A stretch of DNA of 64,000 nt from a virus. A model generated the notes under the pieces. The model was not told the origin of the DNA, searched no databases, and saw only the letters and a program-made list of their open reading frames with translations. The position numbers were made by a program, and so were the translations under genes. Location: IMG/VR virus record IMGVR_UViG_3300020165_002937, one strand, 5' to 3'. This document shows, in pieces, positions 17,908 to 47,128 of the stretch (within the stretch, counting starts at the first letter, position 1; the number at the start of each line of letters is the position of its first letter).

Positions 17908-17921
17908 CATGAGGGCCTTCA

Positions 17922-19718
17922 ATGAGTGATCAACAAAAAAAGATTGTACCAATAAATTATACTAATAGAGAATTTGAAACCATCCGTGACGATTTGCTAG
18001 ATATAGCAGAAAGGTTTTATCCGGATACGTTTCAAGATTTTAGTGAAGCCTCTTTCGGCTCGCTTATGATAGATTCAGTCGCATATGTGGCAGATCAGCT
18101 TTCATTTTATTTAGATTATAACGTTAATGAATCATTTTTAGACACGGCCTACCAATACTCAAACGTGATAAGGCAGGGTAGAACGCTTGGCTATAAGTCC
18201 CAAGGCCGACCCTCAACATACGGCTCTGTGGCTTTATACGTAGTAGTGCCTGCGTCGTCAACGGGTATTGGCCCGGACTCAGGATATATTCCAGTTTTAA
18301 AAAGAGGCTCCTCTTTCACAAGCACAACCGGACTAAACTATGTGTTAACAGAAAATGTTGATTTTTCAAAACCCGAAAATGTTACAATAGTAGCACGCGT
18401 AGACACTGATACCGGCGCCCCAACATACTATGCGATTAAGGCTTATGGCAACGTTGTATCAGGAAAATTCAAAAGAAAAGAAATTAATGTTGGAGGCTAC
18501 GAGAGATTTAAAAAAGTCGTGATAGGGGATTCAAACGTGAGCGAGGTTGTCTCTGTTTACGACTCAGAAGGTAAAGAATATTTTGAAGTTGACTATCTCG
18601 CACAAGACATAGTTTTCAAAGAATTATCAAACACAAATTTTGCTAACGATAATGTTCCATCGATATTAAAGCCAATGATAGTATCTAGAAAATATGTTGT
18701 TGAATATGACTCATTCGGTACTTCATTACAATTTGGTAGCGGCCGCTCTGGCGAAACTGGGGTTATCGCTGACCCGCAGTCGGTAGCAGCAGAAATTTAT
18801 TCGAAAACATACACTAGCGACGTGACCTTTGATCCTTCTAGGCTGTCTAAAAATAGAAACCTTGGTGTAGTGCCGGAGAACACTACGCTGTCTATTGTTT
18901 ATCGTACGACTAATCCTGCTAATTCTAACTTAAGTGTTAGTAAGCTAAACTCAGTTTCAAGCGCGCTAATGGATTTTGTAAATCGTCAAGATCTAGTGTC
19001 GTCAAAAGTGAATGAGGTAATCGCGTCTGTTGAGGTTGAAAATGAACGACCTATAATGGGTGATGTATCATTGCCATCAACGGGCGAAATCAAAAGAAGA
19101 ATTTTTGATACTTTTCCAACACAGAATCGCGCCGTAACCCAATCAGATTATGAAAATATAGCATACAGAATGCCAGCAAAGTTTGGTTCTATTAAGAGAT
19201 GTAGCGTGCAACAAGACCAAAACTCTGCTAAAAGAAATTTAAATATGTATGTTGTATCGGAAGATGAATTTGGAAAATTACTTAAAACTAACAATACAAT
19301 AAAAAATAATTTAAAAACTTGGCTAAATCATTATAGAATGATGAATGATACGGTAGATATAATAGATCCGTATATTATAAACCTTGGAATTAGTTTTATA
19401 ATTCGACCCAATGTTGGTGTCGACCGATATACACTCCTGGACACAGCTATCGCTGCTTTAAAACAAAAATATTCAACTCCGTACTTTATTGGAGAGCCCC
19501 TGTATATAACTGACGTTTTTGACACTTTAAAATCAGTCACTGGCGTCTTAGACGTCGTGAAAGTAAAAGTGACTAATCAGTCGGGCCCGAATTATTCAGG
19601 AACAGAAATAGAAATAAACAAAAACATGTCTCCTGACGGAACATACTTGATCGCGCCAAAAAATGCAATTTTTGAAATCAAGTTTCCGGACGTCGACATA
19701 GTAGGAAAAATTAGATAA
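17922..19718 (+). CDS. Baseplate wedge subunit, T4 gp6 / baseplate-J-like
   Basis: YTNREFETIR, DFSEASFGSLMID..AY..D.LSFYLD....ESFLDTA, LQFGSG, QNRAVTQSDYE. Confidence 0.9.
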   Translation: MSDQQKKIVPINYTNREFETIRDDLLDIAERFYPDTFQDFSEASFGSLMIDSVAYVADQLSFYLDYNVNESFLDTAYQYSNVIRQGRTLGYKSQGRPSTYGSVALYVVVPASSTGIGPDSGYIPVLKRGSSFTSTTGLNYVLTENVDFSKPENVTIVARVDTDTGAPTYYAIKAYGNVVSGKFKRKEINVGGYERFKKVVIGDSNVSEVVSVYDSEGKEYFEVDYLAQDIVFKELSNTNFANDNVPSILKPMIVSRKYVVEYDSFGTSLQFGSGRSGETGVIADPQSVAAEIYSKTYTSDVTFDPSRLSKNRNLGVVPENTTLSIVYRTTNPANSNLSVSKLNSVSSALMDFVNRQDLVSSKVNEVIASVEVENERPIMGDVSLPSTGEIKRRIFDTFPTQNRAVTQSDYENIAYRMPAKFGSIKRCSVQQDQNSAKRNLNMYVVSEDEFGKLLKTNNTIKNNLKTWLNHYRMMNDTVDIIDPYIINLGISFIIRPNVGVDRYTLLDTAIAALKQKYSTPYFIGEPLYITDVFDTLKSVTGVLDVVKVKVTNQSGPNYSGTEIEINKNMSPDGTYLIAPKNAIFEIKFPDVDIVGKIR

Positions 19719-21340
19719 TGGCCATTAAGAAGTATGTTGCAACTGCTGATAACACTATAGTTAATGCATATCAAGAAAATTTAACGACGAGAGGAACCGG
19801 CTCAAATGCTGGTGCAGCAGACGTGATTGAGACTTTTTCTATCTACGGCCGCCAAAGCTCTGGTTCGGCAGAGCTTTCTAGGATTCTAATTAAGTTCCCG
19901 ATTTCACAAATAACAAGTGATAGAAGCAGTAATAAAATACCCGGTAGCGGCAGTGTTAAGTTCTATTTAAAATTATACAACGCAGCCAATTCTAAAACTG
20001 TACCTTCTGGTACCTTTAGCTTGGTAGCTGAGCCACTTTCAAAAAATTGGCAAGAAGGATTTGGATTAGATTTAGAATCTTATTCTGATTTAACACACGG
20101 CAACATAGGTTCTAATTGGATGTCAGCCAGCAATGCTGCTGCATGGACACAGCCTGGCGGCGATTACATCACGGCAGCTAACGCAGCATATCCCTATAGA
20201 TGGTTTAGTCAAACTTTCTACACCGGATTGGAAGATTTCGAAATAGATATTACACAAATGGTGGAGCTTTGGAGCGCGGAAACACTTGACAATTATGGTT
20301 TAGGCATTCATTTTTCCGGCGCCTACGAAGCTCACTATGATCCCTCAGATGGTAACTATGATACCGGAGTCTTGAAAAACACGACCGGATCAACTATCTC
20401 GTACTACACTAAAAGATTCTTCGCCAGAGGCACTCAATATTTTTTCAAAAGGCCTGTTATAGAAGCGCGCTGGGATTCAACTCGAAAAGATGAGCGCGGC
20501 GAAGTTATGTACAGTAGCTCGCTAGCGGGAGTAAACGATAATTTAAATACAATATACTTATATAACTATGTCCGCGGCCGGCTGTCAGATATTCCATCAA
20601 TCGGCACGAACGCGATATATGTCAGCTTTTATTCTGGCTCCGACGATAACTCTGAGCCTAGCGGCCAAGCAGCTTCGTCTAGCGCCACCACCCGCGCGGC
20701 TATACAGCTCCCAACCACACTTCCGCACACCCACGTTTCAAGTATCAACCCATATGTAGTCACCGGTGCCCATGTCTCAACAGGCATCTATAAAGCTACA
20801 TTTGCTATAACTGGTGCTAGAGCACCCCTTACAAAGATTTTTGATGTATGGCATGATGGTACGGGTAAAAACAAGCCCTGGACAGGTGTTGAATATGTAA
20901 CAGCTTCTATCCTACCCACCAACCTAAGCGCGTCCCAAACTGTTGCAAAGCCGGTCTATTATATTAATATTACAAATCTGAGAGGACAGTACGTTACCAA
21001 CGAGACAGCAAGATTTAACTTGTTTGTTAGAAACAAAGATTGGTCACCAACAATATATACGGTAGCGAACTCAACAGTTGAAACAACAACGATCCACAGC
21101 GCATCTTATAGAGTGTTTAGAGTAATTGACGCCTTGGAAGCTGTATCATACGGCACCGGCTCCGACGCTCACACGGTTTTATCACACGATGTTTCGGGCA
21201 ATTATTTTGATTTTGATATGTCACTATTGGATCCTGGATATGAATATGCATTTAAATTTTCATTCTATGATAGTGCAATGTCATCTTGGAGCGAGCAGCC
21301 AGAACTATTCAAGTTCAGAGTTATAGATAATGAGTATTAA
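19718..21340 (+). CDS. Virion structural protein with DNRLRE-like carbohydrate-binding domain
   Basis: ADNTI...SRILIKF...FYLKLYNA...WQEG...W..PGGD...DITQMVELW...NYGL...RPVIEARWD pattern; baseplate context. Confidence 0.6.
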   Translation: MAIKKYVATADNTIVNAYQENLTTRGTGSNAGAADVIETFSIYGRQSSGSAELSRILIKFPISQITSDRSSNKIPGSGSVKFYLKLYNAANSKTVPSGTFSLVAEPLSKNWQEGFGLDLESYSDLTHGNIGSNWMSASNAAAWTQPGGDYITAANAAYPYRWFSQTFYTGLEDFEIDITQMVELWSAETLDNYGLGIHFSGAYEAHYDPSDGNYDTGVLKNTTGSTISYYTKRFFARGTQYFFKRPVIEARWDSTRKDERGEVMYSSSLAGVNDNLNTIYLYNYVRGRLSDIPSIGTNAIYVSFYSGSDDNSEPSGQAASSSATTRAAIQLPTTLPHTHVSSINPYVVTGAHVSTGIYKATFAITGARAPLTKIFDVWHDGTGKNKPWTGVEYVTASILPTNLSASQTVAKPVYYINITNLRGQYVTNETARFNLFVRNKDWSPTIYTVANSTVETTTIHSASYRVFRVIDALEAVSYGTGSDAHTVLSHDVSGNYFDFDMSLLDPGYEYAFKFSFYDSAMSSWSEQPELFKFRVIDNEY

Positions 21341-24300
21341 AAAACTTTTTGATTCAGAAAATAATAGAAATTACCTAACCGACAAAAATGTAAAAGAAGC
21401 GTTTAAGAGTGTTGAGTCGCAGAGGAATGTCGCTGCTTTAAAAGAAAAGCAAGACAGCTTTCTTCCGCAAATAGATTACTCTGATCCGGAGAAATTTGCT
21501 CGCTATGGCTCAGCCTACTTATATTATAAATCTGCGTTCGAGAGAGTCCACAACTACTATCCGTATGATGGCTCATCAGCAGAAAAAACAGAGTTCTATA
21601 ATAAGTCACTAGACATAGAAAAATACATATTTGAAAAAGTCTACCCATCTTCTACTGGTTACGTGACAATTAGTCAAACCGGTTGGGGTTCGCAAGCATC
21701 AGTTTCGGGCGGCTATGGAATCCCAGATAGTCAAGAATACATTACTTTTTTTGGTGGCCCGGGCACTGCATCCTCCCAATTAGGCCCGGATCCTTATTCT
21801 GATATACGGCAGTTCAACAATATTTATGATACTAGTATTTACACTACCGAGGGCCTACTACCAACGTATGGCTCTGGCTCGCGAGAGTCGAACTTAAAAT
21901 CTAATTTTGATACAGGGGTTACAGTTGAATTTTGGGCCAAGACAGGTTCCATGGACGGCGGCGACGATACCTTAAAACAAGTTGTTTTCGATATGTGGAA
22001 CAATGAAGCATCCTCTAGTCAAGCGTATGGCAGAATTACAATAGAGCTGACGGGAGCTGATCAAGGAGACGCATCCAGAACACATGTAAACGGCTGGAAT
22101 GATAGCCCGTTCTTATTAACGGTACAGTCAGGTAGTGGCATCGGCGCCACCGCTGGCATGAAAGCTGAAGGAGCCCCCGGAGCCTTTACAGCGTCAATTG
22201 GTAAAAACTTCAGTAGCTCGTCATTAGGTTCATGGGCCCATTATGCAGTCACTCTCTACAACTCAGGTTCAGATTTACGCGCAGACTTTTTTGTCAACGG
22301 CCTGATCAACGATAGAAAAACGTTTAATAGCCAAGGTATAGGCGCCCTAAACCCTAAAAATATGGTAGGCCGAATTGGCTCTCTGTTGACACAGCCATCT
22401 GCCAGTTATGCCGGCGCTAGCGGCGGAGGCAAACTAAATGGTTCAATCGACGAATTTAGATTTTGGAAAGTAAGAAGAACACCAGAAGAAATTGGCCGCA
22501 ATTGGTTTGTGCCGGTCAATGGTGGTGTTAATACCGATGTTTCTAATGCTGAATTGGGAATGTATTACAAATTTAATGAAGGGATTACTGGAGAAAGCTA
22601 CATTGATGCTATTGTCCTTGATTACGGTGGTCGAGTCTGCAATGGTACATGGACGGGTTATTCTTCGACTTCCAGAAATACTGGCTCAGCCATGGTGTCG
22701 GCTAGCGCCGCGGCCTTCGAACCTCTTGAGCCGATTATTAGGTCGATCCACCCCGATGTTGTAGCTCGAAAAGCTAGTTTATTGTCTAGCGGCTCGTACC
22801 ACGATTCTCAAAATAATTCTAATTTGGCTAGTATGCTACCGGCTTGGGTTTTGGAAGAACACGAAAGTCAAGCTGAAAACCAGAAAACAGATAATAATCT
22901 TCAACTAATGTCTCACATAATGGGCACGTATTTTGATAAATTGTTTTTGCAAATCGAAGCAGTACCAAAATTCAAGCATGCTGGATATACAAGTGGCTCA
23001 CATAAGCCCGTTCCGTTTGCGCAACACTTACCGCAATCTCTAGGCTTAATAACTCCAGAAATATTTATCGACAGCACTATAATGGAGAAGTTTGGCAATA
23101 GAAATGAAAATTCTCAATTTGAAAGTGACCTAAACGATACTAAAAATCTAATTTACTCCAATTTATACAACAACATAGCTGGAATCTATAAAGCTAAAGG
23201 AACAGAAAAATCAATAAGAAACGCGCTTAGGTGTTTTAACGTAGACGATAGACTGATAAAGATGAATACCTATTCCAATAATCAAGTTTATACTGTAAAA
23301 AATAACTTAAAGCAAGTAATTTTAACCAAGAAGAGTTTGAACTTCGACAAATTAGAAAATACCGACGCAGTTCTATATCAAAAACAAAACCCCGAGAACA
23401 ACGAGAGTAGAGGCTATATCGCCGGCCAAGTCGACGGCCACCAATATAGATATGGATTTACTGCTGAGGCCAACGTATTCTTTCCTACTTTTACTAGCGA
23501 ATATGACGTCATAACAAGAACTTTCAAGAACGTCGCGATCTTTGGTATGCAAATGGTACACACTGGAAATGCCGGCGGTACTAATGCGGCTACAGTCGAG
23601 GCAGGTACCGTGCCGGCCGCGAACTCTATGACTGCCGCAGACACCTCTTGGCTGCTTAACGACGATGTTAACTTCCAAGTTTATGCAGTAAGAGACAACC
23701 CTACCTCCAGAAATGTAAAGTTTGTTTTAGATAGCCGACATAGTACTACTCGCCCGTTTCCAAAATTAGAGTCTGATACGTTTTTAGATGTATACGATAA
23801 CTCATCATGGAATCTGTCCGTTAGACTTAAGCCCAGCAACTACCCTTACTCACACATGGTCAGCGGCTCTGGAACTTATACTTTTGATCTTATATTCCAG
23901 GGCTATAACACAGAACTGGGAGCGGTAAAGAACACATTTGCAGTAACCGAATCAATTTCTCAAGTATCTGGCTCAAACTTTATCAAAGCGGGCAAGAGGC
24001 TTTCTACTGGTGCTTACAGAATAAACCTAACTGGCGCCACTGAGGCTTCATTCCGCCCCGCGGGTACGCCTCTTTCAACTCCAATGAAGAGCGATATTAA
24101 TGTGAGTAGCGTTAAGGTTTGGTCAAAATACGTAGATGATAACGCTCTGCTGCAGCACAGCGCTGACATAAATAATTTAGGAATAACAGGATCATACCAA
24201 AACATATCTCCAAAAGATGCAAATTCAGATCAGGTTGATATCTTAAACACAAACACGCTAGCCTTAGCCTGGAACTTTGATAATGTAAGTACCTCCGACG

Positions 24301-27300
24301 CAGCCGGCAATTTCTATACAATAGATGTAAGTTCCGGATCCGCCAATATTAGGAACAACAGAGGCTGGCTCGGCGCCATGGCTGGCTATCAGCACACTGG
24401 ATACGGATATGGATTTATAACTTCTTCGACTGAGGTTGTCGACGTCAGAGAGGTCAACGCTTTTGTGACGCAAGACCCCGAATTAGTGCAAGCCTCAGAT
24501 ATGGTTCAAATAGTTGATGATACTGACTATTACTTTGGTACTCCACAAGACGTTCCTAGCTTTTATTATACTTTCGAGAAAAGTATGTATGCTGCCATAT
24601 CCGAAGAGATGCTGCACTTTTTTGCTGGGATACTAGACTTCAATAACCTTATAGGTCACCCAGTAAACCGTTATCGCGGAAATTACAAAGAATTGGATAA
24701 CTTACGTAACATATTTTTTGAAAAAGTATCGAATGTGACTGAAGTTGAAAGGTATATTGAGTATTATAAATGGTTCGATGACGCAATTATCACCGTTATA
24801 GAACAATTAATGCCGGCTTCATCAGATACACGCCCGGATGTGACAGACACGATCGAAAGCCATGTACTCGAAAGAAACAAATATAAGACAAAATATCCCA
24901 CACTGAACATCTTATCTCAGCCACTTGAAGCTGTTTTATTAGGCTTGGGAGAAAAAATGACGGACTATCGGCTCATATCAACGCCGCTCCCAAGTTCGCC
25001 ACGTAAAGCGCACAAGAAAGAAGGTGTGGATATATACCCAGTCAGATATTGGAAAGAGCGCGCCGAAAGATCTTCGGAAGAGTTAACGTCTGGGGATCCC
25101 ATACTTGATGACATTCGAGATAAAATTAAAACAATTGTAGCGACAAGAGCCCACAAAAGTTCTTCCATCCCTACATTTAGGACATTAGCTGGAGCTTCGT
25201 ATAAAGCCCCAACATTTGCAATGAAATCTCTTTCAATGCCGTTTAATGTCACGGTAGATAACCCTCTAGGTACCGGAAGCTATTTGTATAAAGGCGGAAC
25301 GAACTTCCGTGAAAAGAAAAATATTCACTTTACTTATGATGCCTTACACCCTGCAGGGCCAATTAACCAAGATAACGGAGCTTTCGTTCCAAAAAATGTC
25401 TTGCTGGCTCATGCTTCTGAAATCGTAGAACTGCCTGAATATTTTAAAGCTACTTTAAATAAAAGAAAAAAAGTTAAAAGATACTTTAAGGTTCACCATG
25501 GAAGAAACTGGGAAGACGGTTTTGGATATATGAACACTAAATCTTCTTATGCATTCCCATTCAACATTATAAGCTCTTCGGTTAGTGGTGGTTTTAACGA
25601 TGAAATTAAAGCATATTTCACCGGTGGACTAGAACTTACAAACTTGCATCACGATACTTATGGCGATGATCAAGAGGTGCCACTGCAAGGTCCTTTTACA
25701 AATTATGCCGTAGGTGGCCACCAGTCTAGACATATTTCACTAAATACTGGCTCAGACAATTGGCTGAGCAGACCAGAAGCTTGGAAAATCTTAGTCGGAA
25801 GATGTGTTAATGGAATAAGGCAGACTGGCTCGTTAGGTATGGTAGGTCCAGATTATCCATATCCGGAGGCTAACGACGATCGAACATCGGTCACAAGAAT
25901 AGCGAGAGCTGGCTTAACTAATAATAAGGGCATTGTATGGCCCGATCCAGCCGGCGGAGATAACCGAGGAAACTGCCTAGTCATCCCGTCAACAGGCTCA
26001 GATTCGAACAATGCGTCGTGGGCTCTTCTTTTCGATAATAATATGACCGGCTCTGCGAACGAATTTCCAACTTGGACATTCTCCGGCTGGATTAATCCGA
26101 GCGCTTCGAATGCTGACCGTAATATCTGGGCTGCTGGTTGTTGCGGTGGTAGTGGAGATGAAATACATACAATCTCGATCGAAGGGGATGAAGCTCTTAG
26201 GTACCGGGTACGGACAAGCGACAACGCCGGCTCCGGCGCCGAACGGTCTACTTGGTGGGAAACACCAGCTAGTGCTTTAACAAATGGCAGTTGGAATCAT
26301 ATTGCAGTCTCGGTCACAGGCACTATAGGCTCTCTTACCACAACTATTAAACCAACGCTATATATTAATGGAGTTAGCCAATCTTGGAATGGTTCGACTA
26401 GTCCATCCAGTACACCAAAACAACATTTACCTTCAGCCCGCAGCACCGAGAATAATTTCCGCGGCCACGCCGATCTAGATTTAGCCGGCCCAATTATACT
26501 CGGAGGAACGATCGACTCAGCTAATTCGCATGAATATGGTGGCAACATGGATGAGGTTTCTGTGTGGAACACTCAATTAACTAACGATGAGGTTTATGCC
26601 ATTTACAATGGTGGTGTACCCACCAACTTATCACACAGCTCAACACCTCAGTACGAATATCTGGCAGCTTGGTGGAGAATGGGCGAAGGCACATCAGCTA
26701 CTGTTGACGCTGTAAATACTGGCGCCGCCTCAAGCGCAGTAATCTCAGCTAATAATATTGTAAGAGACTTAATTAGTACTGCATCACTTTTACCAGTAGC
26801 GTCTAGTGGCTATGATATAGAAATGTCAATAGGCTTTAGTTCGCTCACCGGCACCATTGAAATATCTGATGTTATAAAAGTAGGCCCAATGCCCTACCCA
26901 GTAAGCGCTTCTCAAAAAGCAGTATACTACCGTGATTATATAGCGAAGCGCCCGGTAAACTTTAAAAATATACAGCTTAAGCCAGGATCTCCGACAATTA
27001 GCAGCTTAGGGAATTATACAAAGAATTACGAAGTTGTGCAAAGCCATGGCGCTTTTATAAATAATAGAAGATTTGTAGATGAACAACCTTTAATTCCGTC
27101 AGCTAGCCGCAGATATGGAATGAATTATACAGATATAGTCAATTTCATACACAACATCCACCGCGGAGAAGCCGCCCATTTTGATTATGATATAGATTAC
27201 AAACCAAATCAATTTACTGGATCCGAAAACAAAAGTATATTTATCTCAAGATTCAGCGCACCGGGCGGGCCAGAAACACTGGCCCGAGGCTTCCAAGATT

Positions 27301-30300
27301 TAAGAGGCGCAGAATACTCCGTCTACAATACAGTTAATTATAGAAACCTTACCGTAATCCGCCCGGGCCAGGCCCCTAGTGGCACTTTATCCATTGGTGT
27401 AGGGGAACAAGGCTTCGGCGCCACAACGCAGGTAGCAGCCCAGGGTGTGCCCGGAATGAGAGTATATGATATACATACGAGAGATTACGGCCTCACTTCC
27501 CATTATGCCAGACATACAGCCAAATTCGGCCGTGATTCATTATTGCAAACAGGTACTTTAGCAGATCCCGGCATTGCTCAGGCACTTCAAGCCCCCGGCG
27601 CATCATATAACCAGTTGCCTGGTTTCCATAAAACACACAGAAATAATATAAGAAGGTTGAAGCTTTCGGGATCTACTATAATCTCTTCATCGCAATTTGA
27701 TAATTTCTTCGTTCAACATGCAATTCCAAGAAGCGACACCCAATATAGTTGGATTTCCGCGTCCTTACTATCGGATAACGATATCTATGGCCATCCCCCT
27801 GCCAACTTTATGGTCAGTCAATCACTTGGTAGGTTTGACGGTTACGATGAGGCGTACACGTTCATAACAGCAAGTGATACCGTATCATATAATAGTAGTG
27901 GGCTCCGCTTCTTTGGAAGGTCTAAGACGAACCCTCTCATAGCACCCGGCGGCCGCGATCAGCTTGTGCCCGTTGACTTCACTGGCTTAAACATTAATAT
28001 TCGAGAACCAGTCTCTGCCTCTACTAATACCCTGGGTTATGCTTCCCTTGACGTCGACTTTACCGCAACAGCCGCTAGCGGTTATGTAAATTATGTAAAT
28101 CACAAGTATGTATACCGGGCCCTTTCAACTCAAGGTGGAAAAATAAGCAGCCATGGCCAAGGCGTTGCGAGTATGCTAAATTCAATTATACTTCATCGCG
28201 ACGGACCATATGGGTACCCGACTTGGAAAGCTAATAGAAGGCAGAACCACCCAGTCTTAAGAGAAGAGCGCAAGAGAGGCGAAATTAGTATGATTACGTC
28301 GGGTAACCAAAACTTACGCCATTATGAGCTGCGTCCAGTATCTACGCGCGGCCGCCCAATGCTCATAAATCTCAGTCCATATAACAACGATCGTGGTGTA
28401 ATCAAGACAACTGGTGTGCCGTTTACTTTAAAGGCAACTCATGATAACGAACTAATTGGTTTCAATGATGTTGAACTTAATGATCAAGTCTTATATGGAA
28501 GCGTAAGACCGACTACTCCCTATGATCAGATAACGAGAATAGTCGGAGTTAATGGCAACAACTACTTGTTAAATTGGGTTGTATACACACAGAACATTTT
28601 CCCATCTTCTAGAAATGAGTATTCCGCGTCAGTTCGCGAGCGCTTAAACTATGATAACTTCTTTTGGAGGGATCAGCAAGATCAGAGAATAGCATTAACA
28701 AAGCCCCTGCATTGGTATTATGGTGGGGCCGCACCTGTTAATCCACCGTGGACACACACACCACGTAATGTTGCAAATAACATATCTTTTGATGTCTGGC
28801 CGCTGAGCGCTCCGCAGAGCTTTTTGACTAGAAGTCACGTAGCCCCCTTGCCGCACCTACATAATGGTGAAACCGGTGCAAAAAATCCGAATTTCACCGG
28901 AAAAGGCTCAGCATTTTTTAAAGGCAATCTATCTGGAACCGCCGCGGGAATACTACAAAATTCATTCAGCAGTTATATAACTGGCGCCTCAGAGTATTTG
29001 TCTGAATATACTGGCTATACATCTATTTCGCACAAGTATAAAAACTACTATGCTATACGTGCATTAATGCCAGTGCCGCTATACTCTAGAAAACACGCGG
29101 TTGCTGCTCCATGGTCCGTCGTCGCGCCTTCTGGGATTGACTTGTACCAGCAAATGGATGACGGTGGCTCACGCGCCGGAGTTTGGCCACAATACACGAA
29201 CTTCCACGACGCCGCCGCGGCTCCGCTTTATGCTGGTGAAGCTCACTGGGACGCCGCGGCCACAGCCGGCGTAGTAGAAAAAAATACGGCCGTTGGGCTG
29301 AGTGAGACCCTGAAGACTCTACCAGTATTCAGGAAAAAACCATCAGCACCTTGGTTCAACAACTACGATGATTTTAAGTATGATGTCAAACTACAAGCAA
29401 AAGATTATGCAATTGTACCAGAGTTTAGATTAAGCGAAAATGTAGAAGACTATGTTAAATATGGAATTAACAATCCATCCAAAACTGATACTTATGAGAT
29501 CCCAGGTACAATTTTAACCAGCGTGTCGTCGTCCTTTTATAAGGATTATTCAAATTCAGAATTCTTAGGAGAATTTTTGAGAGTTAAATCTCGAAATCAT
29601 CTAATTGGATCACAAATTAGGTTAGTCTGCAGTGCAGCAATAAAGCTCAACCCTTATAAGGGATTTTATCCAGCACAAAGAACAATTCAGCTTGTCACCC
29701 AATTCTCCAAATCATACGCTAGTGGTCTTCAGGCTTGGTGGGAATATTCTTTTCCGACTCCGGCTACCGGTGATTATACGAGACTTCAAGCTGATGGTCG
29801 AGAGATCTTATACAACAAAGGCGGCGCCGCGCGCCCTCTGATGCAAGCGCTTTTTGCGCCAGGCTTGATGTATAACACGATTAAATCTGGCATGGCTGTC
29901 GACTATCCGACCGTATTAGATTCTACACGTGTTTGGCGCGCCAAATATGGTGGTGCTGCCACATCCTCAATTCGAACATACCCAAATCCTTCACAAGCCG
30001 ATGGCCCCACCTTTAGTGAAAATAACTACGCCATAGTACCGAATCCAAGTACAGTTACCAGTAGTACCTTTGTTGCTACTAGCTTAGAAGGCTATTCTAG
30101 TGGACCGTATTTCGATTTTAGAATACCCTTTGAAACTTTAATAACGCCAACAAAATATATCGACAATGTAAAATTTATAGATTTGGAGCCCCATCCATCG
30201 ATGTCCTTGATGACTACCGCCTCTATGGTAGTAACAGACACTGATGATTTATACGAACTAATGGCCAAAAACTTTTTTGGCGAGGTTCCAAATTTCTTCC

Positions 30301-32354: not shown

Positions 32355-32371
32355 CAAATTGTATTTGAGTC

Positions 32372-32379
32372 TATTTATA
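32372..32379 (+). promoter_or_regulatory. Putative late promoter element TATTTATA
   Basis: Intergenic; starts 21 nt before ATG 32393. Confidence 0.5.
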
Positions 32380-32392
32380 ACAGAGTTAAAAA

Positions 32393-38562: not shown

Positions 38563-38600
38563 TTCTACGCAACAAATCATTTTAAAGGAATATATAGGAT

Positions 38601-39152
38601 ATGCAAAAATATAAAAAATCTGATCTCGTCGACGGCCGGACCAGAGCAAAAATCTTAAGAAGAAACATTAAACGCTCCAATTCAACTATCATTGGCGGCA
38701 TCCAGACTGACCTTGGCAATTCTAATGGCCTAACATCCATTCTACGTTCTTACAAGAAAATAAGAACAGCTACAAGCGGAGATACTGATCCAAAATTTGC
38801 AGTGAACAACATCAATCGAATATCCGAAGTTATGTTGAATGAAATGGGGTGTTCGATAGTCAATATTCCAACAAGCTATTCGCTTTTACAAGATCAAACT
38901 GATAAAGAACCACTGACTAACCCGAATATACAGGACCCACAACTTTCTATTGCAAAGGCAGAAAAAATATCACCGACTATTCAATATGGAGAAGGTGACC
39001 CATTTTATGTTCATGATGATCAGATCTCAAGATATAAAAGCTATTCTAGCCCAGTGCCTTCTGTAGTTCGCACACCAACTTTGGCTGAACTTTCTAGTCT
39101 GGTAACCGGAATGTCTACATCGAGATCTCGCTCAAGCTCGAAATATATTTAA
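38601..39152 (+). CDS. Hypothetical protein (structural block)
   Basis: 183-aa ORF with AGGA RBS; Ser/Arg-rich tail. Confidence 0.6.
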   Translation: MQKYKKSDLVDGRTRAKILRRNIKRSNSTIIGGIQTDLGNSNGLTSILRSYKKIRTATSGDTDPKFAVNNINRISEVMLNEMGCSIVNIPTSYSLLQDQTDKEPLTNPNIQDPQLSIAKAEKISPTIQYGEGDPFYVHDDQISRYKSYSSPVPSVVRTPTLAELSSLVTGMSTSRSRSSSKYI

Positions 39153-39184
39153 AATGCAACTTATAATTTTAGGAAATATAAATA

Positions 39185-43545: not shown

Positions 43546-43559
43546 ACAAAAAATATAAC

Positions 43560-43567
43560 TATTTAAT
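43560..43567 (+). promoter_or_regulatory. Putative late promoter element TATTTA
   Basis: Intergenic; starts 23 nt before ATG 43583, upstream of an AGGAGAGG RBS. Confidence 0.5.
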
Positions 43568-43582
43568 AGGAGAGGACAATTA

Positions 43583-44575
43583 ATGGCTTTTTTAGATAAT
43601 TCCGGTGACATCATTCTCGACGCCGTATTAACCGATTTAGGGCGCAGAAGAATGGCCCAAGGAAGATTCAGAATAACAAAATTCGCACTTGGTGATGACG
43701 AGATTGACTATGGGTTATACACCCTTAACACAGGCTCAGCTTACACTGATTTAGAAATCATGCAAACGCCCGTATTTGAAGCATTCACTCAAACGAACGC
43801 AAATATCAACTACGGACTTTTATCGTATACTCGGACGGACTTACTATATCTGCCAGAGCTGGAGATCAACAACAAAGTTAAAAACGCCGTGCACGCAACC
43901 GGGAGTGTCTACTATCTTGCAGCGAACAGCGAAACGACTTCCAAGCTTAGCACGACGTTTGGAGATACAAAGTATCGCATGGAATCGGGAGCAACGTCAG
44001 ACAACGCAATTATCGTTGAGTCTGGCTTGAACACAGTCGACTTGAAAGGCGACTCAACCAACAGAGCTACTTATATAATCAACACTAACCTTCTAGACCA
44101 GAATTATCAGATATATGCTGATAATCGTTTTGTCGGTGGCATCTCAAGCAACAATCCAAGTGGTTTTTTCAGAAACAACACCGCCGGCGCTTTAGAATCT
44201 AACTTGTTTCCGTTGAGAACCGGAACCAGCGTTAGTACCACAGCCGTGCTTGACAACTATAGCACCTTTAATGCCCGGGCCTTGGCGAACTTAATCTACT
44301 TTTACGATACAGCTACCTCTGACACCGCGCTTTCGGCCATTTCAGGCCCCCGCGGTACCGTAATCGCTTTGGGCCTAACAGTCACAGGGGAGTTGGCCGC
44401 TACATCTACTGGTACAAGAAGTACTAAATACAGCTTATTTGGCTCGACTGATCAGACTATTTTTGGTGGCTCGGACAAGTATGATTACATTGACACACAA
44501 GTGTATGTCATCGGCTCAGCAACTACAGCTCAGCTGCAAATACCAGTAAGAATCATAAGATACGCAGGATCATAA
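43583..44575 (+). CDS. Tail/baseplate structural protein (tail-collar-fibre-like N-terminus)
   Basis: ILDAVLTDLGRRRMAQG..RITKFALGDDEIDY resembles the LTxxG...ITxxAxGD start of tail-collar fibre domains. Confidence 0.6.
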   Translation: MAFLDNSGDIILDAVLTDLGRRRMAQGRFRITKFALGDDEIDYGLYTLNTGSAYTDLEIMQTPVFEAFTQTNANINYGLLSYTRTDLLYLPELEINNKVKNAVHATGSVYYLAANSETTSKLSTTFGDTKYRMESGATSDNAIIVESGLNTVDLKGDSTNRATYIINTNLLDQNYQIYADNRFVGGISSNNPSGFFRNNTAGALESNLFPLRTGTSVSTTAVLDNYSTFNARALANLIYFYDTATSDTALSAISGPRGTVIALGLTVTGELAATSTGTRSTKYSLFGSTDQTIFGGSDKYDYIDTQVYVIGSATTAQLQIPVRIIRYAGS

Positions 44576-44588
44576 TCGGAGTAAATAA

Positions 44589-45719
44589 ATGCCAGTAATT
44601 AACTATGAACCCTTAAACACAACTACAGATATCACAACTACCCGTACTGTTTTACATGAAGCTCTCCCTCTAACCGGAACAATTGTAAGCGGCACGTATG
44701 GGACATATAGAAGCGAACACAATATTAAAAACTATTCGCACGGTATGTTTCAGTCGGTATACGATTATCCTTACTTGAGTTCATCCGCTAACCACATTTT
44801 TGATATTACGGTTGGCTACGACGAATCGTCAGCTTTTTCTGCTTCAGCAGTTGCAGGCGGCTTAAACCCTGGAGTCCAAAACTCTAAAAAGATAAATATG
44901 TACAATCAATTTGCACAAGTTTTATTAGGTTATACAGGGAGTGCTAACACAGTAGAAATTTTTGAATCTGATTTAAATTTTGCTGATAACAACAACCAAA
45001 TGAAAGAAGTAGTGTTTGTTAACTTCTCAAGATTACTTGTAAAAGACCAAATCAAGAAAGGTTCATTTAGCATGATTCTTGGTACCGGTTCCTGGACGGA
45101 TCCTTTCGGGGTTGTCGGCGGAGGTGCTTTTACATCTTCGATGACACTATCCGATGTCTCGGCTTCGTCAGCCGAAACCGGAACTGGTAATTCCAACGGT
45201 GGAGACTATGGTGTACTTTTCCAGACTGCCGGCGGAGGTACCGCCCAAACCGGCTTAGGCACGGGATCTATCGCCAAGGGTGTTGTATTCTATCAAGCTG
45301 GTATTGTTGTATTAACCGCGTCTGTTTTCTCGAACAAAGATTCTGATTTCTTTATTGAATCGAATGGAACAAAAAGAGGAATCGGTAACGCATATGTCTC
45401 AGCCTCGATTAGTGGCAGTTGCAATGCGATAAGGCGCAGAATTAGAAATATTTCCTTCAACAACAACACAGAAATTAATTCAACAATTTACTTCTGTCGT
45501 GCGCCACACAACAAGTTTAATTATACGTCTAATCCGACATACGTGAGTGGCAGCAAGATTGTAGTTAAGAATGTCGCGGCCGATGAGCCCAAAACTTATA
45601 TAACGACTGTTGGCCTTTATAGTTCTGCTAACGAACTATTAGCGATTGCTAAGCTTTCTGAACCTCTGAAGAAAGATCCTTCGAATGAGATTACGCTGAG
45701 AGTCAGACTGGACTATTAA
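44589..45719 (+). CDS. Tail/baseplate structural protein (tail-collar-fibre-like C-terminus)
   Basis: FNYTSNPTY...TYITTVGLYSSANELLAIAKLSEPLKK...LRVRLDY. Confidence 0.6.
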   Translation: MPVINYEPLNTTTDITTTRTVLHEALPLTGTIVSGTYGTYRSEHNIKNYSHGMFQSVYDYPYLSSSANHIFDITVGYDESSAFSASAVAGGLNPGVQNSKKINMYNQFAQVLLGYTGSANTVEIFESDLNFADNNNQMKEVVFVNFSRLLVKDQIKKGSFSMILGTGSWTDPFGVVGGGAFTSSMTLSDVSASSAETGTGNSNGGDYGVLFQTAGGGTAQTGLGTGSIAKGVVFYQAGIVVLTASVFSNKDSDFFIESNGTKRGIGNAYVSASISGSCNAIRRRIRNISFNNNTEINSTIYFCRAPHNKFNYTSNPTYVSGSKIVVKNVAADEPKTYITTVGLYSSANELLAIAKLSEPLKKDPSNEITLRVRLDY

Positions 45720-45721
45720 AA

Positions 45722-47128
45722 ATGTCCTACAAGAAGTTCAAGAATAAAGACATAATAATAAACACGATGAGGACTCACCCCAAAAGTGAGTTCTTTATTT
45801 ATGACGCAAAAGTTTATTACAATAATACGCCAACGAGAGCAGGCCAGTTCAACCCAGAAACGATATTGTCCGTTGGTCGACATAACGAAAAGTACACTGG
45901 TTATATTAGCCTTTACGAATACAACATAGATCGTAATGGATCAAGCAACCCTTTTATGTTCCCATACATAAACAAGAACACATCAAGGACTAGCTTCAAG
46001 ACAGCTGGCGATGCCTCAGCGCCAAATGAATGGTCAGGCGCTGATGTCGGGGCGATACTTACGAGTAACTACCCCTTGTCGGCATCGATTACGAGAGAAT
46101 GGATGCCCGATCCGATTGCAAAAGTTGTCGGCCCCGGGTGTAAAAAAGTTGATGAAGCTTTAGACAGCTCTGAGTTAGAAGCCTGCGCCCCTAAACACCG
46201 TCACTTTTACTCTTTAAAAAACAAACTTGAATACAATTCGATAAGAAGCTACCATTACAAAGTTAGTTCGTCAGTTACACCAAGCGACCCTACTTCAAAT
46301 GGTTGTCGCGGCCGCGGCGCAGTAGGTAGCCTAGGCGCCCACGATTGTAATGGGTTTAATAAAGAGGGCCAAAAATTAAATTTAATATCCATTCCTTCAA
46401 TTTTTTATGGCAAGACCATAAAGCCCGGTTCAGTCTCACTCAAGTGGTATTATACTGGAAGTCTTCTGGGAGAACTTAGGGACACGAAAAGAAATGGTGA
46501 GCTAATACAGGTCTCGGGCGCATTTTCGTCCTCTCAAGGCGGCATGTTAGGTGGCAACCACATTGGCGCGGTTGCTGGAACCATACTCTATGATCAAGGG
46601 TTTGTGATGTTAACCGGTTCATGGAACCTGGCTGAATCTGATACGGTCGGTGTTTTACCAGCTGCCGCCAGAGATTATCCAAAATGGATTTACTGGGCCG
46701 CCGGCGCCAACGAAACGGGTGCTGCCGCAGATATAGTTAACAAGAGCACTGCTCATTCATCACTGTTTAACGCTGCCTTTTCTATGAATTTTGAAGGTTC
46801 TACTGATACCCAAGTCATGACTATGTTTGCCCGAACTGGCAAGGGAGAATCGAATTATTCGAACAACCCCACATATGCACAGTTTGGCCAAGAACTCACA
46901 AGAGTTACGTCTTCTTTCTTGTACGAAGAGAACCCAGAAAGAATGACCTTTAACACAGTTAGTTCAAGTTACGCGGCCCACTCAGCTTCTTTTGAACGCC
47001 AAGTTTATATATCTAAAGTTGCAATTTACGATGATTCTAAAAACTTAATTGGAATTGCCTCTTTGGCGACACCGGTTTTGAAAAAAGAAACACAAGACAT
47101 GACGTTTAAGATTAAATTAGATATTTAG
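45722..47128 (+). CDS. Tail/baseplate structural protein, paralog of 44589..45719
   Basis: IKPGS, GTILYDQGFVMLT, NYSNNPTY...VYISKVAIYDDSKNLIGIASLATPVLK...FKIKLDI mirror the upstream gene. Confidence 0.6.
   Translation: MSYKKFKNKDIIINTMRTHPKSEFFIYDAKVYYNNTPTRAGQFNPETILSVGRHNEKYTGYISLYEYNIDRNGSSNPFMFPYINKNTSRTSFKTAGDASAPNEWSGADVGAILTSNYPLSASITREWMPDPIAKVVGPGCKKVDEALDSSELEACAPKHRHFYSLKNKLEYNSIRSYHYKVSSSVTPSDPTSNGCRGRGAVGSLGAHDCNGFNKEGQKLNLISIPSIFYGKTIKPGSVSLKWYYTGSLLGELRDTKRNGELIQVSGAFSSSQGGMLGGNHIGAVAGTILYDQGFVMLTGSWNLAESDTVGVLPAAARDYPKWIYWAAGANETGAAADIVNKSTAHSSLFNAAFSMNFEGSTDTQVMTMFARTGKGESNYSNNPTYAQFGQELTRVTSSFLYEENPERMTFNTVSSSYAAHSASFERQVYISKVAIYDDSKNLIGIASLATPVLKKETQDMTFKIKLDI

What the first reader, a model, noticed from the sequence alone, without database searches (positions are those of the whole stretch)
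19718..47128. Dense [S/T]-[G/A/S]-S tripeptide in a subset of virion proteins: candidate O-glycosylation sequon for the phage's own sugar cluster
Seen: TGS/SGS/SAS/TAS/SSS, often after a hydrophobic residue, recurs roughly 40 or more times by eye in the 3674-aa protein (KTGS, YNSGS, NTGSAMVSAS, MVSGS, ITGS, FTGS, LSGS, ISAS, LSAS, VSTGS). It also recurs in 19718 (GTGS, MSAS, YSGS, VTAS, HSAS), 43583, 44589 (YTGS, VSASISGS, VSGS) and 45722 (LSAS, YTGS, LTGS, HSAS). It is scarce in the 2204-aa and 1531-aa proteins and in the enzymes. The occurrences are scattered and use varied codons, so this is not a DNA repeat. The same window encodes GT2 transferases and GDP-deoxyhexose and heptose-like pathways. 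Inference: a phage-encoded system that glycosylates exposed baseplate/tail surfaces at a defined Ser motif, giving a glycan shield or adhesion function.
Basis: partly seen in the sequence, partly recalled or inferred. Interest (0 to 1): 0.75.

Follow-up and report, generated by a model that had tools for sequence, protein, structure and literature searches.

The report
Selected serine motif on phage tail proteins
A short serine motif (hydrophobic-[S/T]-[G/A/S]-S) is truly over-represented, and kept so by selection, on the outward-facing tail and baseplate proteins of an abundant family of ocean phages; it is most likely a tag read by a phage enzyme, probably for attaching sugars, but no sugar attachment has been shown.

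Summary
[ST][GAS]S is 3-5 times over-represented in five proteins of the window: 19718, 21330, 32393, 44589 and 45722. The signal survives local shuffles, is directional (TGS 20 vs SGT 6) and uses mixed codons.

The same orthologous groups are enriched in complete relatives, in 76-80 orthologues per family, and in cultured Far-T4-like phages (Flavobacterium phage immuto, Microcystis phage Mel-JY01, Rhodothermus RM378). Adjacent structural proteins and T4, KVP40 and F336 show nothing. Sites sit at strand ends and loops and in lineage-specific outer domains of sheath and capsid. Positions turn over while density is kept.

One sublineage has lost the motif in all five proteins at once. Flanks are kept, but the third Ser is replaced by D/E/Q/N. 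This argues against a purely structural turn.

The link to glycosyltransferases is partial. Every motif-rich phage has a conserved soluble GT4 pair, with no export genes, and the only GT-less relative is motif-poor. But three motif-poor phages keep the GTs.

Glycosylation sequon: about 0.45. Purely structural: about 0.27. Other reader: about 0.22.

The scan had noted this motif on the next window of the same genome.

The parts
19718..21340 (+). 540-aa baseplate-module protein directly after the gp6-like wedge gene; motif-rich
   Evidence: 12 motifs vs 3.4 expected. Orthologues 15/2.6, 15/4.9, 10/3.9, 8/2.4 in four relatives. 0/1.1 to 2/2.4 in the motif-poor lineage. No Pfam or PHROG hit.
21330..32354 (+). 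3674-aa giant baseplate/fibre protein with a Laminin_G_3 (ConA-like) domain; main carrier of the motif
   Evidence: 52 vs 15.4, z=10. Pfam PF13385 4.5e-14 at residues 1581-1755. Orthologues keep 45-53 motifs each. 24 of the 52 window sites are unique and only 3 are shared by all four orthologues. No internal repeats by BLAST.
32393..33979 (+).
   Evidence: 6 vs 1.5, p=0.004. Orthologues 5/0.8, 2/1.0, 2/0.7, 2/0.2.
44589..45719 (+). 376-aa conserved virion protein; densest motif carrier; paralogue of 45722
   Evidence: 11 vs 2.4. 80 orthologues average 8.7 vs 2.3, with class-preserving substitutions at conserved sites. 2.3x enrichment within variable columns. 110 diverse representatives total 725 vs 248. 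AF2 model pLDDT 67, with no site inside a beta-strand. No significant fold match.
45722..47128 (+). 468-aa paralogue sharing the C-terminal ~90-aa domain with 44589; motif-rich
   Evidence: 8 vs 2.6. 76 orthologues average 10.3 vs 2.3. 96 distinct sites and 4.0x enrichment in variable columns. Shared C-terminal domain. In the AF2 model, TGS 245 is a hairpin turn and L-TGS-W 298 is a strand cap.
43583..44575 (+).
   Evidence: 2 vs 1.5. 89 orthologues at 0.99x. Variable-column ratio 0.68.
17533..19718 (+). gp25-like (17533-17907) and gp6-like (17922-19718) inner baseplate wedge genes; they anchor the module and are not motif-rich
   Evidence: PF04965 4.4e-13. phrog_219 baseplate wedge 1.1e-18. 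The gp6-like protein has 0 motifs vs 1.9 expected, and 0-1 in all relatives.
140..916 (+). 258-aa probable divergent GT2-like (GT-A) glycosyltransferase; the only candidate transferase inside the window
   Evidence: No Pfam hit. PDB TarS-like glycosyltransferase E=0.035. ESM Atlas 0.98 to GT2-like clusters, many viral. No TM segment.
913..6327 (+). Right-hand end of the variable glycan island: GDP-sugar and heptose-type activation genes
   Evidence: Pfam: Epimerase 1.2e-51, GDP_Man_Dehyd 3.7e-113, methyltransferase, DegT 8.4e-67, pfkB 6.7e-16, CTP_transf_like 1.3e-18, HAD, cupin. All soluble. Contents differ between relatives.

Best explanation
The tripeptide is better written as hydrophobic-[S/T]-[G/A/S]-S. 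It is a short linear motif kept by selection on the outward-facing parts of virion proteins of Far-T4-like phages. These parts include peripheral baseplate proteins, the giant protein, fibres and spikes, and the outer domains of sheath and capsid. It most likely serves as an acceptor site (sequon) that a phage-encoded, soluble, cytoplasmic enzyme reads before or during virion assembly. The most likely enzyme is the strongly conserved GT4 glycosyltransferase and its adjacent GT partner. In relatives these lie at the head of the glycan island, upstream of this window's left edge. They would put a sugar on the third-position Ser, and the variable island, of which the window holds the right-hand end, would optionally elaborate it.

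Shown: the enrichment, its directionality, its restriction to certain orthologous groups, its conservation across the clade, its positional turnover, its location in loops and outer domains, and its concerted loss in one sublineage.

For: (1) Real, directional, protein-level enrichment limited to five proteins.
(2) The same orthogroups are enriched in four complete relatives. Family averages: 44589 3.8x (n=80) and 45722 4.4x (n=76). Adjacent 43583 (0.99x, n=89) and 40714 (1.01x, n=38) are at the null.
(3) Density is conserved while positions are fluid. 72 and 96 distinct aligned sites occur in the two families. Enrichment within variable columns is 2.3x and 4.0x, against 0.68x and 0.94x in controls. 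In the giant protein 24 of 52 sites are private, yet each orthologue holds 45-53 motifs.
(4) The enriched proteins share no domain except the 44589/45722 pair. So one fold cannot explain the pattern.
(5) In conserved-fold proteins the motifs avoid the core. Sheath outer part 41 vs 18.2 and conserved core 0 vs 3.3. Capsid lineage-specific segment 12 vs 5.3 and the rest 4 vs 4.0. In the two AF2 models no site lies inside a beta-strand.
(6) The signal is clade-specific. Cultured immuto, Mel-JY01 and RM378 show it. T4, KVP40 and F336 do not. P-SSM2 and HTVC008M show only non-directional Ser-rich proteins.
(7) Hosts span three phyla, so any reader must be phage-encoded. The GT4 orthologue is present in all motif-rich genomes tested. 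It is absent from five outgroups. It is far more conserved (71-92% identity among the top 120 of more than 7800 homologues) than the motif-bearing proteins.
(8) The eight clade genomes searched have no Bac_transf, Wzx or WecA/MraY gene. The island ORFs checked (G001, G003 and the window's own sugar genes) have no TM-like segment. The thymidylate-synthase/hydroxymethylase family is absent from 7 of 8 genomes. This favours a cytoplasmic, non-DNA acceptor.
(9) A sublineage lost the motif in all five proteins together: G011 0.53x, G006 0.65x, G010 1.3x, G008 1.3x. Flanks were retained and Ser3 was replaced by D/E/Q/N/H, for example L-TGS-W to L-TG[QDE]-W.
(10) The only phage with the GT pair deleted (G006) is motif-poor. 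It alone has mutated the otherwise invariant YL-SSS-AN site.
Against: There is no direct evidence of any modification.

Three motif-poor phages (G008, G010, G011) keep intact GT4 and second-GT genes. So the GTs have a function that does not need a high motif load, and GT presence does not predict the motif.

The co-occurrence rests on about one gain (the clade) and one loss lineage. G006 is a 27%-complete contig, so a GT elsewhere in its genome cannot be excluded.

The motif has hydrophobic residues on both sides and sits at strand ends. Phi-[ST][GA]S is mildly over-represented in all phage proteomes, including the GT4-less outgroups (1.45-1.69x). It is therefore also a natural turn element.

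In immuto's spike, many copies lie in short periodic fibrous repeats.

Non-virion phage proteins show no avoidance of the motif (rest of proteome about 1.0x). A promiscuous linear-sequon enzyme might be expected to cause avoidance.

The GT4 has no specific similarity to known protein O-glycosyltransferases.

The window's own GT4 was not seen, because its expected position lies outside the window.
Confidence: 0.45

Rival explanations
1. The motif is purely structural and acts only in cis. Phi-[ST]-[GA]-S-Phi would be a favoured strand-cap or tight-turn building block of the beta-rich outer domains and fibres that this phage clade happens to use. Nothing reads or modifies it. The glycan island would do something unrelated, such as modifying a host surface glycan assembled on host carriers.
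For: Sites sit right after beta-strands, in a hairpin turn (TGS 245 of 45722) or at helix N-caps. The pooled logo has aromatic residues at -2, V/I/L at -1 and Y/F/I/L at +1. Immuto's spike carries the motif in 6- and 9-residue periodic repeats and in GDGSxLTG and SHAEG units. The 4-mer is 1.45-1.69x over-represented in the unrelated GT4-less outgroups. Some sites lie in invariant blocks (YDYPYLSSSANH, LTGSW). Motif-poor phages keep the GT pair.
Against: The enriched proteins share no fold or domain. Beta-rich neighbours (gp6-like, 43583, 40714, 33967) and all T4, KVP40 and F336 virion proteins lack it. Enrichment persists in variable columns with rapid site turnover. Five unrelated proteins lost it together in one lineage while staying orthologous and of the same length. 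At conserved sites the flanks stay, but Ser3 becomes D/E/Q/N/H. So small size at that position is not required by the turn.
Confidence: 0.27
2. The motif is read in trans, but not by a glycosyltransferase. It could be the site of another modification, such as phosphorylation or acylation. It could also be a docking site for a phage chaperone, assembly factor or decoration protein. The gene for that reader would have been lost or changed in the motif-poor sublineage.
For: Concerted loss across five proteins while the GT pair is retained in three of four poor phages fits a reader other than the GTs. The sugar-nucleotide genes are dispensable for a high motif load (G013). No avoidance of the motif in cytoplasmic enzymes fits a reader that acts only in an assembly context. 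An FKBP-type isomerase gene lies next to the module (48107).
Against: No candidate kinase, acyltransferase or decoration gene was identified here. The only conserved clade-specific enzyme found that co-varies at all with the motif is the GT4. The GT-less phage is the one that lost the invariant SSS site. Export-less soluble glycan islands need some intracellular acceptor.
Confidence: 0.22
3. The pattern is a compositional or low-complexity artefact. Ser/Thr/Gly-rich stretches would inflate the count with no specific motif behind it.
For: The five proteins are richer in Ser (9-11%) than most others. SSS runs contribute overlapping counts. Ser-rich large proteins of P-SSM2 and HTVC008M also score.
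Against: Global and 30-aa local shuffles give the same z of about 13. Permuted orders of the same residues are far less enriched or not enriched ([GAS][ST]S 36 vs 25; [ST][GA]T 16 vs 11.5). TGS 20 vs SGT 6. Ser-rich 38601 (14% Ser, 1 vs 1.3) and 39185 (0 vs 2.8) are not enriched.
Confidence: 0.03

Closest known systems
Virion glycosylation of mycobacteriophages (Che8, Corndog, Myrna; Freeman et al. 2023, Cell Host Microbe). Recalled from my own knowledge; the paper is cited in the library but was not read here.
   Same: Phage-encoded glycosyltransferases near the structural genes would O-glycosylate the phage's own virion proteins in the cytoplasm.
   Different: There the acceptors are Ser/Thr-rich C-terminal tails of capsid and tail-tube subunits, and glycans were shown experimentally. 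Here the candidate sites are a defined directional tripeptide scattered over many proteins (baseplate, giant protein, fibres, outer sheath and capsid domains). Nothing is shown experimentally, and the clade (Far-T4-like myophages of Bacteroidota, Rhodothermota and Cyanobacteria) is unrelated.
GtfA/GtfB O-GlcNAcylation of serine-rich-repeat adhesins in Gram-positive bacteria (PMC7661464)
   Same: It is a cytoplasmic system with a core pair of adjacent GT genes plus variable accessory GTs in a 'glycosylation island'. Ser in S-x-S-type repeats is the acceptor. The substrates are fibre-like. GtfA belonging to the GT4/Glycos_transf_1 family is my own knowledge.
   Different: The phage GT4 has no specific sequence similarity to GtfA; its best solved relatives are BshA and chlorovirus B736L. 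There is no accessory Sec system. Acceptor sites are mostly scattered rather than long SRR tracts. Whether the second GT is a non-catalytic partner is unknown.
Export-less 'glycan islands' or 'LPS gene clusters' of large marine T4-like phages (P-SSM2-type clusters, my own knowledge; earlier scan note e1-6017458)
   Same: It is the same kind of hypervariable, soluble sugar-building block at a fixed site next to the structural genes. The window's genes 140-6327 are the right-hand end of such an island.
   Different: Those clusters have no known acceptor. This finding offers a concrete candidate acceptor motif and a defined set of target proteins. P-SSM2 itself lacks the GT4 orthologue and the directional motif.
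Autonomous glycosylation of giant-virus capsids and fibrils (chloroviruses, Mimivirus; PMC4691112, listed but not read here)
   Same: Virus-encoded sugar pathways and soluble GTs decorate the virus's own surface proteins. One of the closest solved relatives of the phage GT4 is chlorovirus GT B736L (E=7e-7).
   Different: Those are eukaryotic viruses. From my own knowledge, chlorovirus capsid glycans are N-linked at atypical sequons.
Generic ST-turn or strand-cap motifs of beta-rich proteins
   Same: Small polar residues follow a hydrophobic strand end. A mild baseline over-representation is seen in all phage proteomes tested (1.45-1.69x in the GT4-less outgroups).
   Different: The baseline is below 2x, against 5.4-9.6x in the enriched sets. 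A generic motif would not be clade-specific and protein-specific, directional, turning over under selection, and lost in concert.

Membership tests
Far-T4-like phages (RM378 group; PMC7198788) | T4-type head and packaging genes plus T4-type baseplate wedge genes, with RM378 and related phages as nearest cultured relatives | tested here: met
   Portal_T4 3.6e-76 and TerL. gp25-like. gp6-like phrog_219. The best cultured portal hits are immuto and Mel-JY01, with RM378 lower on the list. The 44589 C-terminal domain is found only in these phages and one uncultured record.
Phage-encoded virion protein O-glycosylation system | Soluble phage-encoded glycosyltransferase(s) conserved together with the acceptor proteins | tested here: inconclusive
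   All motif-rich genomes have the GT4 pair. Five outgroups lack it. The only GT-less phage is motif-poor. But three motif-poor phages keep the GTs. The window itself holds only one probable GT2-like ORF.
Phage-encoded virion protein O-glycosylation system | No lipid-carrier initiation or export machinery, meaning a cytoplasmic acceptor | tested here: met
   No Bac_transf, Wzx or WecA/MraY in eight clade genomes. No TM-like segment in the island ORFs of G001, G003 and the window.
Phage-encoded virion protein O-glycosylation system | A glycan covalently attached to the motif Ser | not testable with these tools
   Needs mass spectrometry or glycan staining of virions.
Phage-encoded virion protein O-glycosylation system | Acceptor sites on solvent-exposed surface of the assembled virion | tested here: inconclusive
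   Sites lie in loops, turns and caps and in lineage-specific outer parts of sheath and capsid.
GtfA/GtfB-type serine-rich-repeat glycosylation | Priming enzyme specifically related to GtfA, with a GtfB-like partner | tested here: not met
   The phage GT4 hits Glycos_transf_1 and GT4-conflict generically. No GtfA structure appears among its 47 PDB matches. The nature of the partner GT was not resolved.
Maf-type (flagellin) nonulosonic-acid O-glycosylation | Maf/MptE-like transferase (PF01973) | tested here: not met
   None in eight clade genomes. Earlier notes report Maf-like genes in islands of other genomes, which were not examined here.
Autotransporter heptosyltransferase (TibC/AAH) type Ser heptosylation | GT9-like heptosyltransferase alongside an ADP-heptose supply | tested here: not met
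   PF01075 is absent; the only hit is one sub-threshold match in G003. The window does encode an HldE-like kinase, a nucleotidyltransferase and a HAD enzyme.
Bacteroidetes general O-glycosylation (D-[ST]-[AILVMT] sequon; my own knowledge) | Asp before the acceptor, with periplasmic en-bloc transfer | tested here: not met
   Position -1 is enriched for V/I/L, and D does not appear among the enriched residues listed. No flippase or carrier enzymes are present. Hosts of the clade span three phyla.
Structural tight-turn or strand-cap motif | Residue identities dictated by the sterics of the turn and conserved with the fold | tested here: not met
   At conserved sites in the motif-poor lineage the flanks persist, but Ser3 becomes D/E/Q/N/H. 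Sites turn over rapidly within orthologues.

The most novel reading that the evidence does not exclude
An abundant clade of ocean and freshwater phages (Far-T4-like) carries a self-contained cytoplasmic Ser-O-glycosylation system with a minimal sequon, hydrophobic-[S/T]-[G/A/S]-S. A core GT4 pair writes it, and it sugar-coats the outer surface of the whole virion: peripheral baseplate, giant protein, fibres, and outer sheath and capsid domains. The glycans would be diversified by a hypervariable island. Natural lineages have abandoned the system and erased their sequons.
Probability: 0.4. Interest if true: 0.85.

Novelty: new variant of a known kind. Interest (0 to 1): 0.72.

Why it matters
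Large marine T4-like phages carry big, hypervariable sugar-building gene islands whose acceptor has never been identified. This finding supplies a concrete, testable candidate: a defined serine motif on a defined set of virion proteins. It is conserved from a thermophile phage (RM378) to abundant ocean phages.

Three cultured members (Flavobacterium phage immuto, Microcystis phage Mel-JY01, Rhodothermus phage RM378) carry both the motif and the conserved GT4. A single glycoproteomics experiment could therefore settle the question.

If confirmed, it would be the first defined sequon for phage virion glycosylation. It would also extend virion glycosylation from actinobacteriophages to a globally abundant myophage clade. 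That bears on adsorption, particle stability, grazing or enzymatic decay, and how phage 'auxiliary' sugar genes are read in metagenomes.

If it is instead a structural or docking motif, the concerted loss in one lineage still points to an unknown trans-acting partner.

Tried and rejected
- PHROGs gave no hit for any of the ten proteins 19718-47128. Pfam gave only Laminin_G_3 plus two marginal hits.
- blastn of 44589-47128 against cultured phages found nothing.
- Fold searches of both AF2 models (Foldseek PDB for both, VIA-align wide for the 44589 model) gave no significant match. The best were T4 gp6 and phiKZ baseplate chains at E of 0.06 or worse and Z of 4.6 or less. The identity of the 44589/45722 family within the baseplate therefore stays open.
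- A profile search of the 44589 family against PDB sequences gave nothing.
- tblastn with the immuto spike repeat region returned no match, not even to itself, presumably because of the low-complexity filter. It is uninformative.
- No whole genome is held for the window. The window's own GT4 could therefore not be checked.
- A Maf-like transferase, a lead from earlier notes, was not found in eight genomes. GT9 was absent apart from one sub-threshold hit.
- T4-style DNA glucosylation as the role of the GT4 is considered unlikely. The thymidylate-synthase/hydroxymethylase family is absent from 7 of 8 genomes. Other DNA hypermodification routes were not excluded.
- A sequon switch in the motif-poor lineage was looked for and not found: no tripeptide stands out there.
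- 'Island size predicts motif load' is rejected. G013, with only two GTs, is motif-rich.
- G006 and G010 are not true sisters. Their structural proteins are 46-75% identical although the nuclease is 98% identical. I therefore do not use them as a matched pair.
- Searches for further motif-poor phages with P0202 and P0262 found no IMG/VR relatives.
- The maximum-likelihood tree run timed out. The tree used is FastTree with SH-like support.
- Complex prediction was not used, because enzyme-substrate pairs are a poor use of it.
- Solvent accessibility could not be computed, because model coordinates are not exposed.

Full report
**Setting.** The window is one strand of a large phage. It carries a T4-type portal (Pfam 3.6e-76), TerL, a tubulin-like gene and an SbcCD-like nuclease. 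It also has a gp25-like wedge gene at 17533 and a gp6-like wedge gene at 17922 (phrog_219). The stretch 17533-47128 is therefore the baseplate/tail-appendage module. None of the ten proteins from 19718 to 47128 hits PHROGs. Pfam finds only a Laminin_G_3 domain in the 3674-aa protein, plus two marginal hits. The left end (913-6327) encodes Gmd, an SDR epimerase/reductase, a methyltransferase, a DegT-type enzyme, a pfkB kinase, a nucleotidyltransferase, a HAD enzyme and a cupin. The nearest cultured relatives are Flavobacterium phage immuto, Microcystis phage Mel-JY01 and Rhodothermus phage RM378. This is the 'Far-T4-like' group of PMC7198788.

| Protein | Observed | Expected |
|---|---|---|
| 19718 | 12 | 3.4 |
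| 21330 | 52 | 15.4 (z=10) |
| 32393 | 6 | 1.5 |
| 44589 | 11 | 2.4 |
| 45722 | 8 | 2.6 |
| 43583 | 2 | 1.5 |

The 2204-aa and 1531-aa proteins and all enzymes are at expectation.

Pooled over the five proteins, the count is 89 against 25 expected. The result is the same when residues are shuffled only within 30-aa blocks, so local composition is not the cause. With a hydrophobic residue in front, Phi-[ST][GA]S occurs 30 times against 4.8. The motif is directional: TGS 20 vs SGT 6, and TAS 10 vs SAT 2. Thr is not accepted at the third position. All codons are used. It is a protein-level motif, not a DNA repeat.

**Is it conserved?** The 376-aa protein has 181 relatives in IMG/VR.
- In 80 orthologues the motif averages 8.7 against 2.3 expected. 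Conserved sites keep the class while the residues change. For example, site 243 reads TAS/TSS/SSS/SAS/SGS in 73 of 80.
- In four complete or nearly complete relatives the same orthologous groups are enriched. The neighbours (gp6-like, 2204-aa, 33967, 40714, 43583) never are.
- Over the 80 loci, the 44589 family is 3.8x and the 45722 family 4.4x. The adjacent 43583 family (0.99x, n=89) and 40714 family (1.01x, n=38) sit exactly at the null.
- An exhaustive profile search finds 3407 representatives. The 110 full-length ones among the top 150 total 725 against 248 expected.
- The rest of each proteome is at about 1.0x.

**Selection on the class, not on fixed positions.**
- In the 44589 family the motif occupies 72 distinct aligned sites, only 5 of them in at least half the sequences. 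Within columns below 50% conservation it is still 2.3x enriched.
- In the 45722 family it occupies 96 sites and is 4.0x enriched in variable columns. The control families give 0.68x and 0.94x.
- In the giant protein, 24 of the 52 window sites are private and 3 are shared by all four orthologues. Yet each orthologue carries 45-53 motifs at about 40% identity.
- BLAST finds no shared domain among the enriched proteins, except that 44589 and 45722 are paralogues sharing a C-terminal domain.

**Where do the sites sit?** Both AF2 models are of moderate quality: 44589 at pLDDT 67 and 45722 at pLDDT 65. By my reading of their secondary-structure strings, none of the 19 sites lies inside a beta-strand. 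They follow strands (L-TGS-W at 298), form a hairpin turn (TGS at 245), cap short helices or lie in low-confidence loops.

In proteins with a conserved fold the motifs avoid the core, across five genomes:

| Protein part | Observed | Expected |
|---|---|---|
| Sheath, variable part | 41 | 18.2 |
| Sheath, C-terminal core aligned to T4 gp18 | 0 | 3.3 |
| Capsid, segment not alignable to T4 gp23 | 12 | 5.3 |
| Capsid, the rest | 4 | 4.0 |

This partly checks an earlier first-reader note on the next window (e1-5834833).

**Specificity to the clade.**
- None of 27 T4 structural proteins is clearly enriched. The highest is gp48, 7 vs 2.9, p=0.024.
- KVP40 and F336 have no enriched protein. P-SSM2 and HTVC008M have one or two Ser-rich large proteins with modest, non-directional enrichment.
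- All three cultured Far-T4-like phages have directional, multi-protein enrichment. The most extreme case is immuto's 1053-aa spike: 60 vs 20, with TGS 12 vs SGT 1.

**The structural rival.**
- In that spike many copies lie in short periodic repeats: [ST][AG]S[YF] every 6 or 9 residues, plus GSFxGDGSxLTG and SHAEG units.
- The pooled logo has hydrophobic residues on both sides.
- Phi-[ST][GA]S is 1.45-1.69x over-represented in the GT4-less outgroup proteomes.

So the motif is also a natural strand-end element, and this reading cannot be dismissed.

**The glycosyltransferase link.**
- Inside the window there is no Pfam GT. ORF 140-916 is a probable divergent GT2-like protein.
- All five complete relatives carry an adjacent pair of GT1-family genes plus variable sugar genes. 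In G001, mapped in detail, the pair lies directly after a PhoH-like gene and a PD-(D/E)XK nuclease and heads a ~20-kb island. In this window that position would fall left of base 1.
- The first GT (GT4, 423 aa) has orthologues in immuto, RM378 and Mel-JY01. In Mel-JY01 it is split between its two halves into two annotated GT genes. Five outgroups lack it.
- It is very strongly conserved: 71-92% identity among the top 120 of more than 7800 homologues.
- The eight clade genomes have no initiating phosphoglycosyl transferase, Wzx or WecA/MraY. The island ORFs checked have no TM-like segment. The thymidylate-synthase/hydroxymethylase family is missing from 7 of 8 genomes.
- These results favour a cytoplasmic, non-DNA acceptor. 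They agree with an earlier follow-up on another genome (e1-6017458), which left the target open.
- The GT4 is a generic GT4. Its best solved relatives are BshA and chlorovirus B736L, and no GtfA is among them. No Maf gene and no significant GT9 match were found.

**A natural experiment.** A tree of the 44589 family shows a supported subclade of 13 representatives with 0-3 motifs each (one has 5), against a family median of about 8. Contigs of this lineage show the loss is phage-wide. A junction search with the G006 nuclease found 27 loci. Twenty-six have nuclease-GT4-second GT, and only G006 has the nuclease followed directly by the 6767-like gene. G006 has no GT1- or GT2-family gene on its 48.6 kb.

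| Phage | Island at the fixed site | Five-family load (obs/exp) | Ratio |
|---|---|---|---|
| G011 | two GTs only | 6 / 11.3 | 0.53 |
| G006 | none | about 8 / 12 | 0.65 |
| G010 | two GTs only | 17 / 12.7 | 1.3 |
| G008 | two GTs only | about 26 / 19 | 1.3 |
| G012 | two GTs only (partial data) | 6 / 3.0 | 2.0 |
| G014 | about 7 kb (partial data) | 32 / 12.7 | 2.5 |
| G013 | two GTs only | 62 / 21.9 | 2.8 |

Three conclusions follow.
- The sugar-nucleotide genes are not needed for a high motif load.
- Every motif-rich phage examined has the GT pair, and the one GT-less phage is motif-poor.
- The GT pair is not sufficient, since three motif-poor phages keep it.

**What the loss lineage says about mechanism.** At sites conserved elsewhere, the poor lineage keeps the flanks but dismantles the motif:
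- L-TGS-W becomes L-TGQ-W, L-TGD-W or L-TGE-W.
- VL-TAS-VF becomes VL-SPH, VL-SAD, VL-SPN or VL-TTD.
- TV-SSS-YA becomes TV-YSP-Y.

The third Ser is therefore not a steric requirement of the turn. Five unrelated proteins gave the motif up together. That is what one expects when a common trans-acting reader stops mattering, and it is hard to explain by fold physics. No replacement tripeptide emerges. The otherwise invariant YL-SSS-AN site is retained in the GT-bearing poor phages and mutated (RSS) only in GT-less G006. This is suggestive but anecdotal. G006 and G010 are mosaic relatives rather than true sisters.

**Verdict.** The motif behaves like a selected, trans-read tag on outward-facing virion surfaces. 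A phage-encoded soluble GT4 pair is the best candidate reader, giving Ser O-glycosylation as the leading mechanism (about 0.45). A purely structural turn motif (about 0.27) and another reader or modification (about 0.22) remain open. The main reasons are that three motif-poor phages keep the GTs and that no modification has been observed.

**Caveats.**
- Counts include overlapping matches.
- ORFs were called mechanically.
- Orthologues are not phylogenetically independent.
- The co-occurrence rests on roughly one gain and one loss lineage.
- G006-G014 are genome fragments.
- The window's own GT4 lies outside the window.

Noticed in passing
window 44589-47128; Mel-JY01 (PP395634) 172489-181435: The 376-aa and 468-aa proteins are paralogues sharing a ~90-aa C-terminal domain. 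The family is expanded to at least five tandem copies in Microcystis phage Mel-JY01, most of them motif-rich. RM378's single copy is not enriched (1 vs 1.1).
   Followed up: partly
relatives: G001 42537-64072; L235-L261 (site left of window base 1): The glycan island sits at a fixed site between a PD-(D/E)XK nuclease and the orthologue of window gene 6767. It comes in size classes: absent (G006), two GTs only (G008, G010-G013), about 7 kb (G014) and about 20 kb (G001). G006 and G010 have 98%-identical nucleases but differ by presence of the GT pair. Their structural proteins are only 46-75% identical, which indicates mosaic recombination.
   Followed up: partly
Mel-JY01 (PP395634) 83441-84932 (L202:942-2433): The conserved GT4 is split between its two Rossmann-like halves into two adjacent annotated glycosyltransferase ORFs (190 and 302 aa), 10 bases apart and in different frames. 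It may be a functional two-chain GT-B enzyme, a frameshift or a sequencing error.
   Followed up: no
window 50056-53214: The SbcCD-like nuclease family (44 orthologues) has only 0.28x the expected number of [ST][GAS]S motifs. This is the lowest of any family tested. The proteome-wide background shows no avoidance, so the meaning is unclear.
   Followed up: no
window 44589-45719, residues 55-72: An invariant block, YDYPYLSSSANHIFDI, is identical in 80 of 80 orthologues. It falls in the lowest-confidence part of the AF2 model (pLDDT about 30). It is probably an interface that orders only in the assembled baseplate.
   Followed up: no
relatives: G001 139579-142509, G003 175894-179247: The tail sheath proteins are 976-1117 aa, against 659 aa in T4. 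Only the C-terminal ~300 aa align to gp18. The large N-terminal expansion carries all the motifs.
   Followed up: partly
immuto (MW353176) 97614-100775: The 1053-aa annotated tail spike is 16.7% Ser. It is built partly of short repeats: [ST][AG]S[YF] every 6 or 9 residues, [ST]GSF[ST]GSFxGDGSxLTG units and SHAEG-type units. It is the most extreme motif carrier seen (60 vs 20) and a good first target for mass spectrometry.
   Followed up: partly
P-SSM2 18953-20746; HTVC008M 33435-43923: Large Ser-rich proteins of these unrelated marine T4-like phages show modest [ST][GAS]S enrichment without directionality (TGS about equal to SGT). This shows that S-x-S richness alone is not specific to the Far-T4 clade.
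   Followed up: no
window 48107-48676: An FKBP-type peptidyl-prolyl isomerase gene (Pfam 8.5e-21) lies just downstream of the baseplate module. Orthologues exist in relatives, at varying positions.
   Followed up: no
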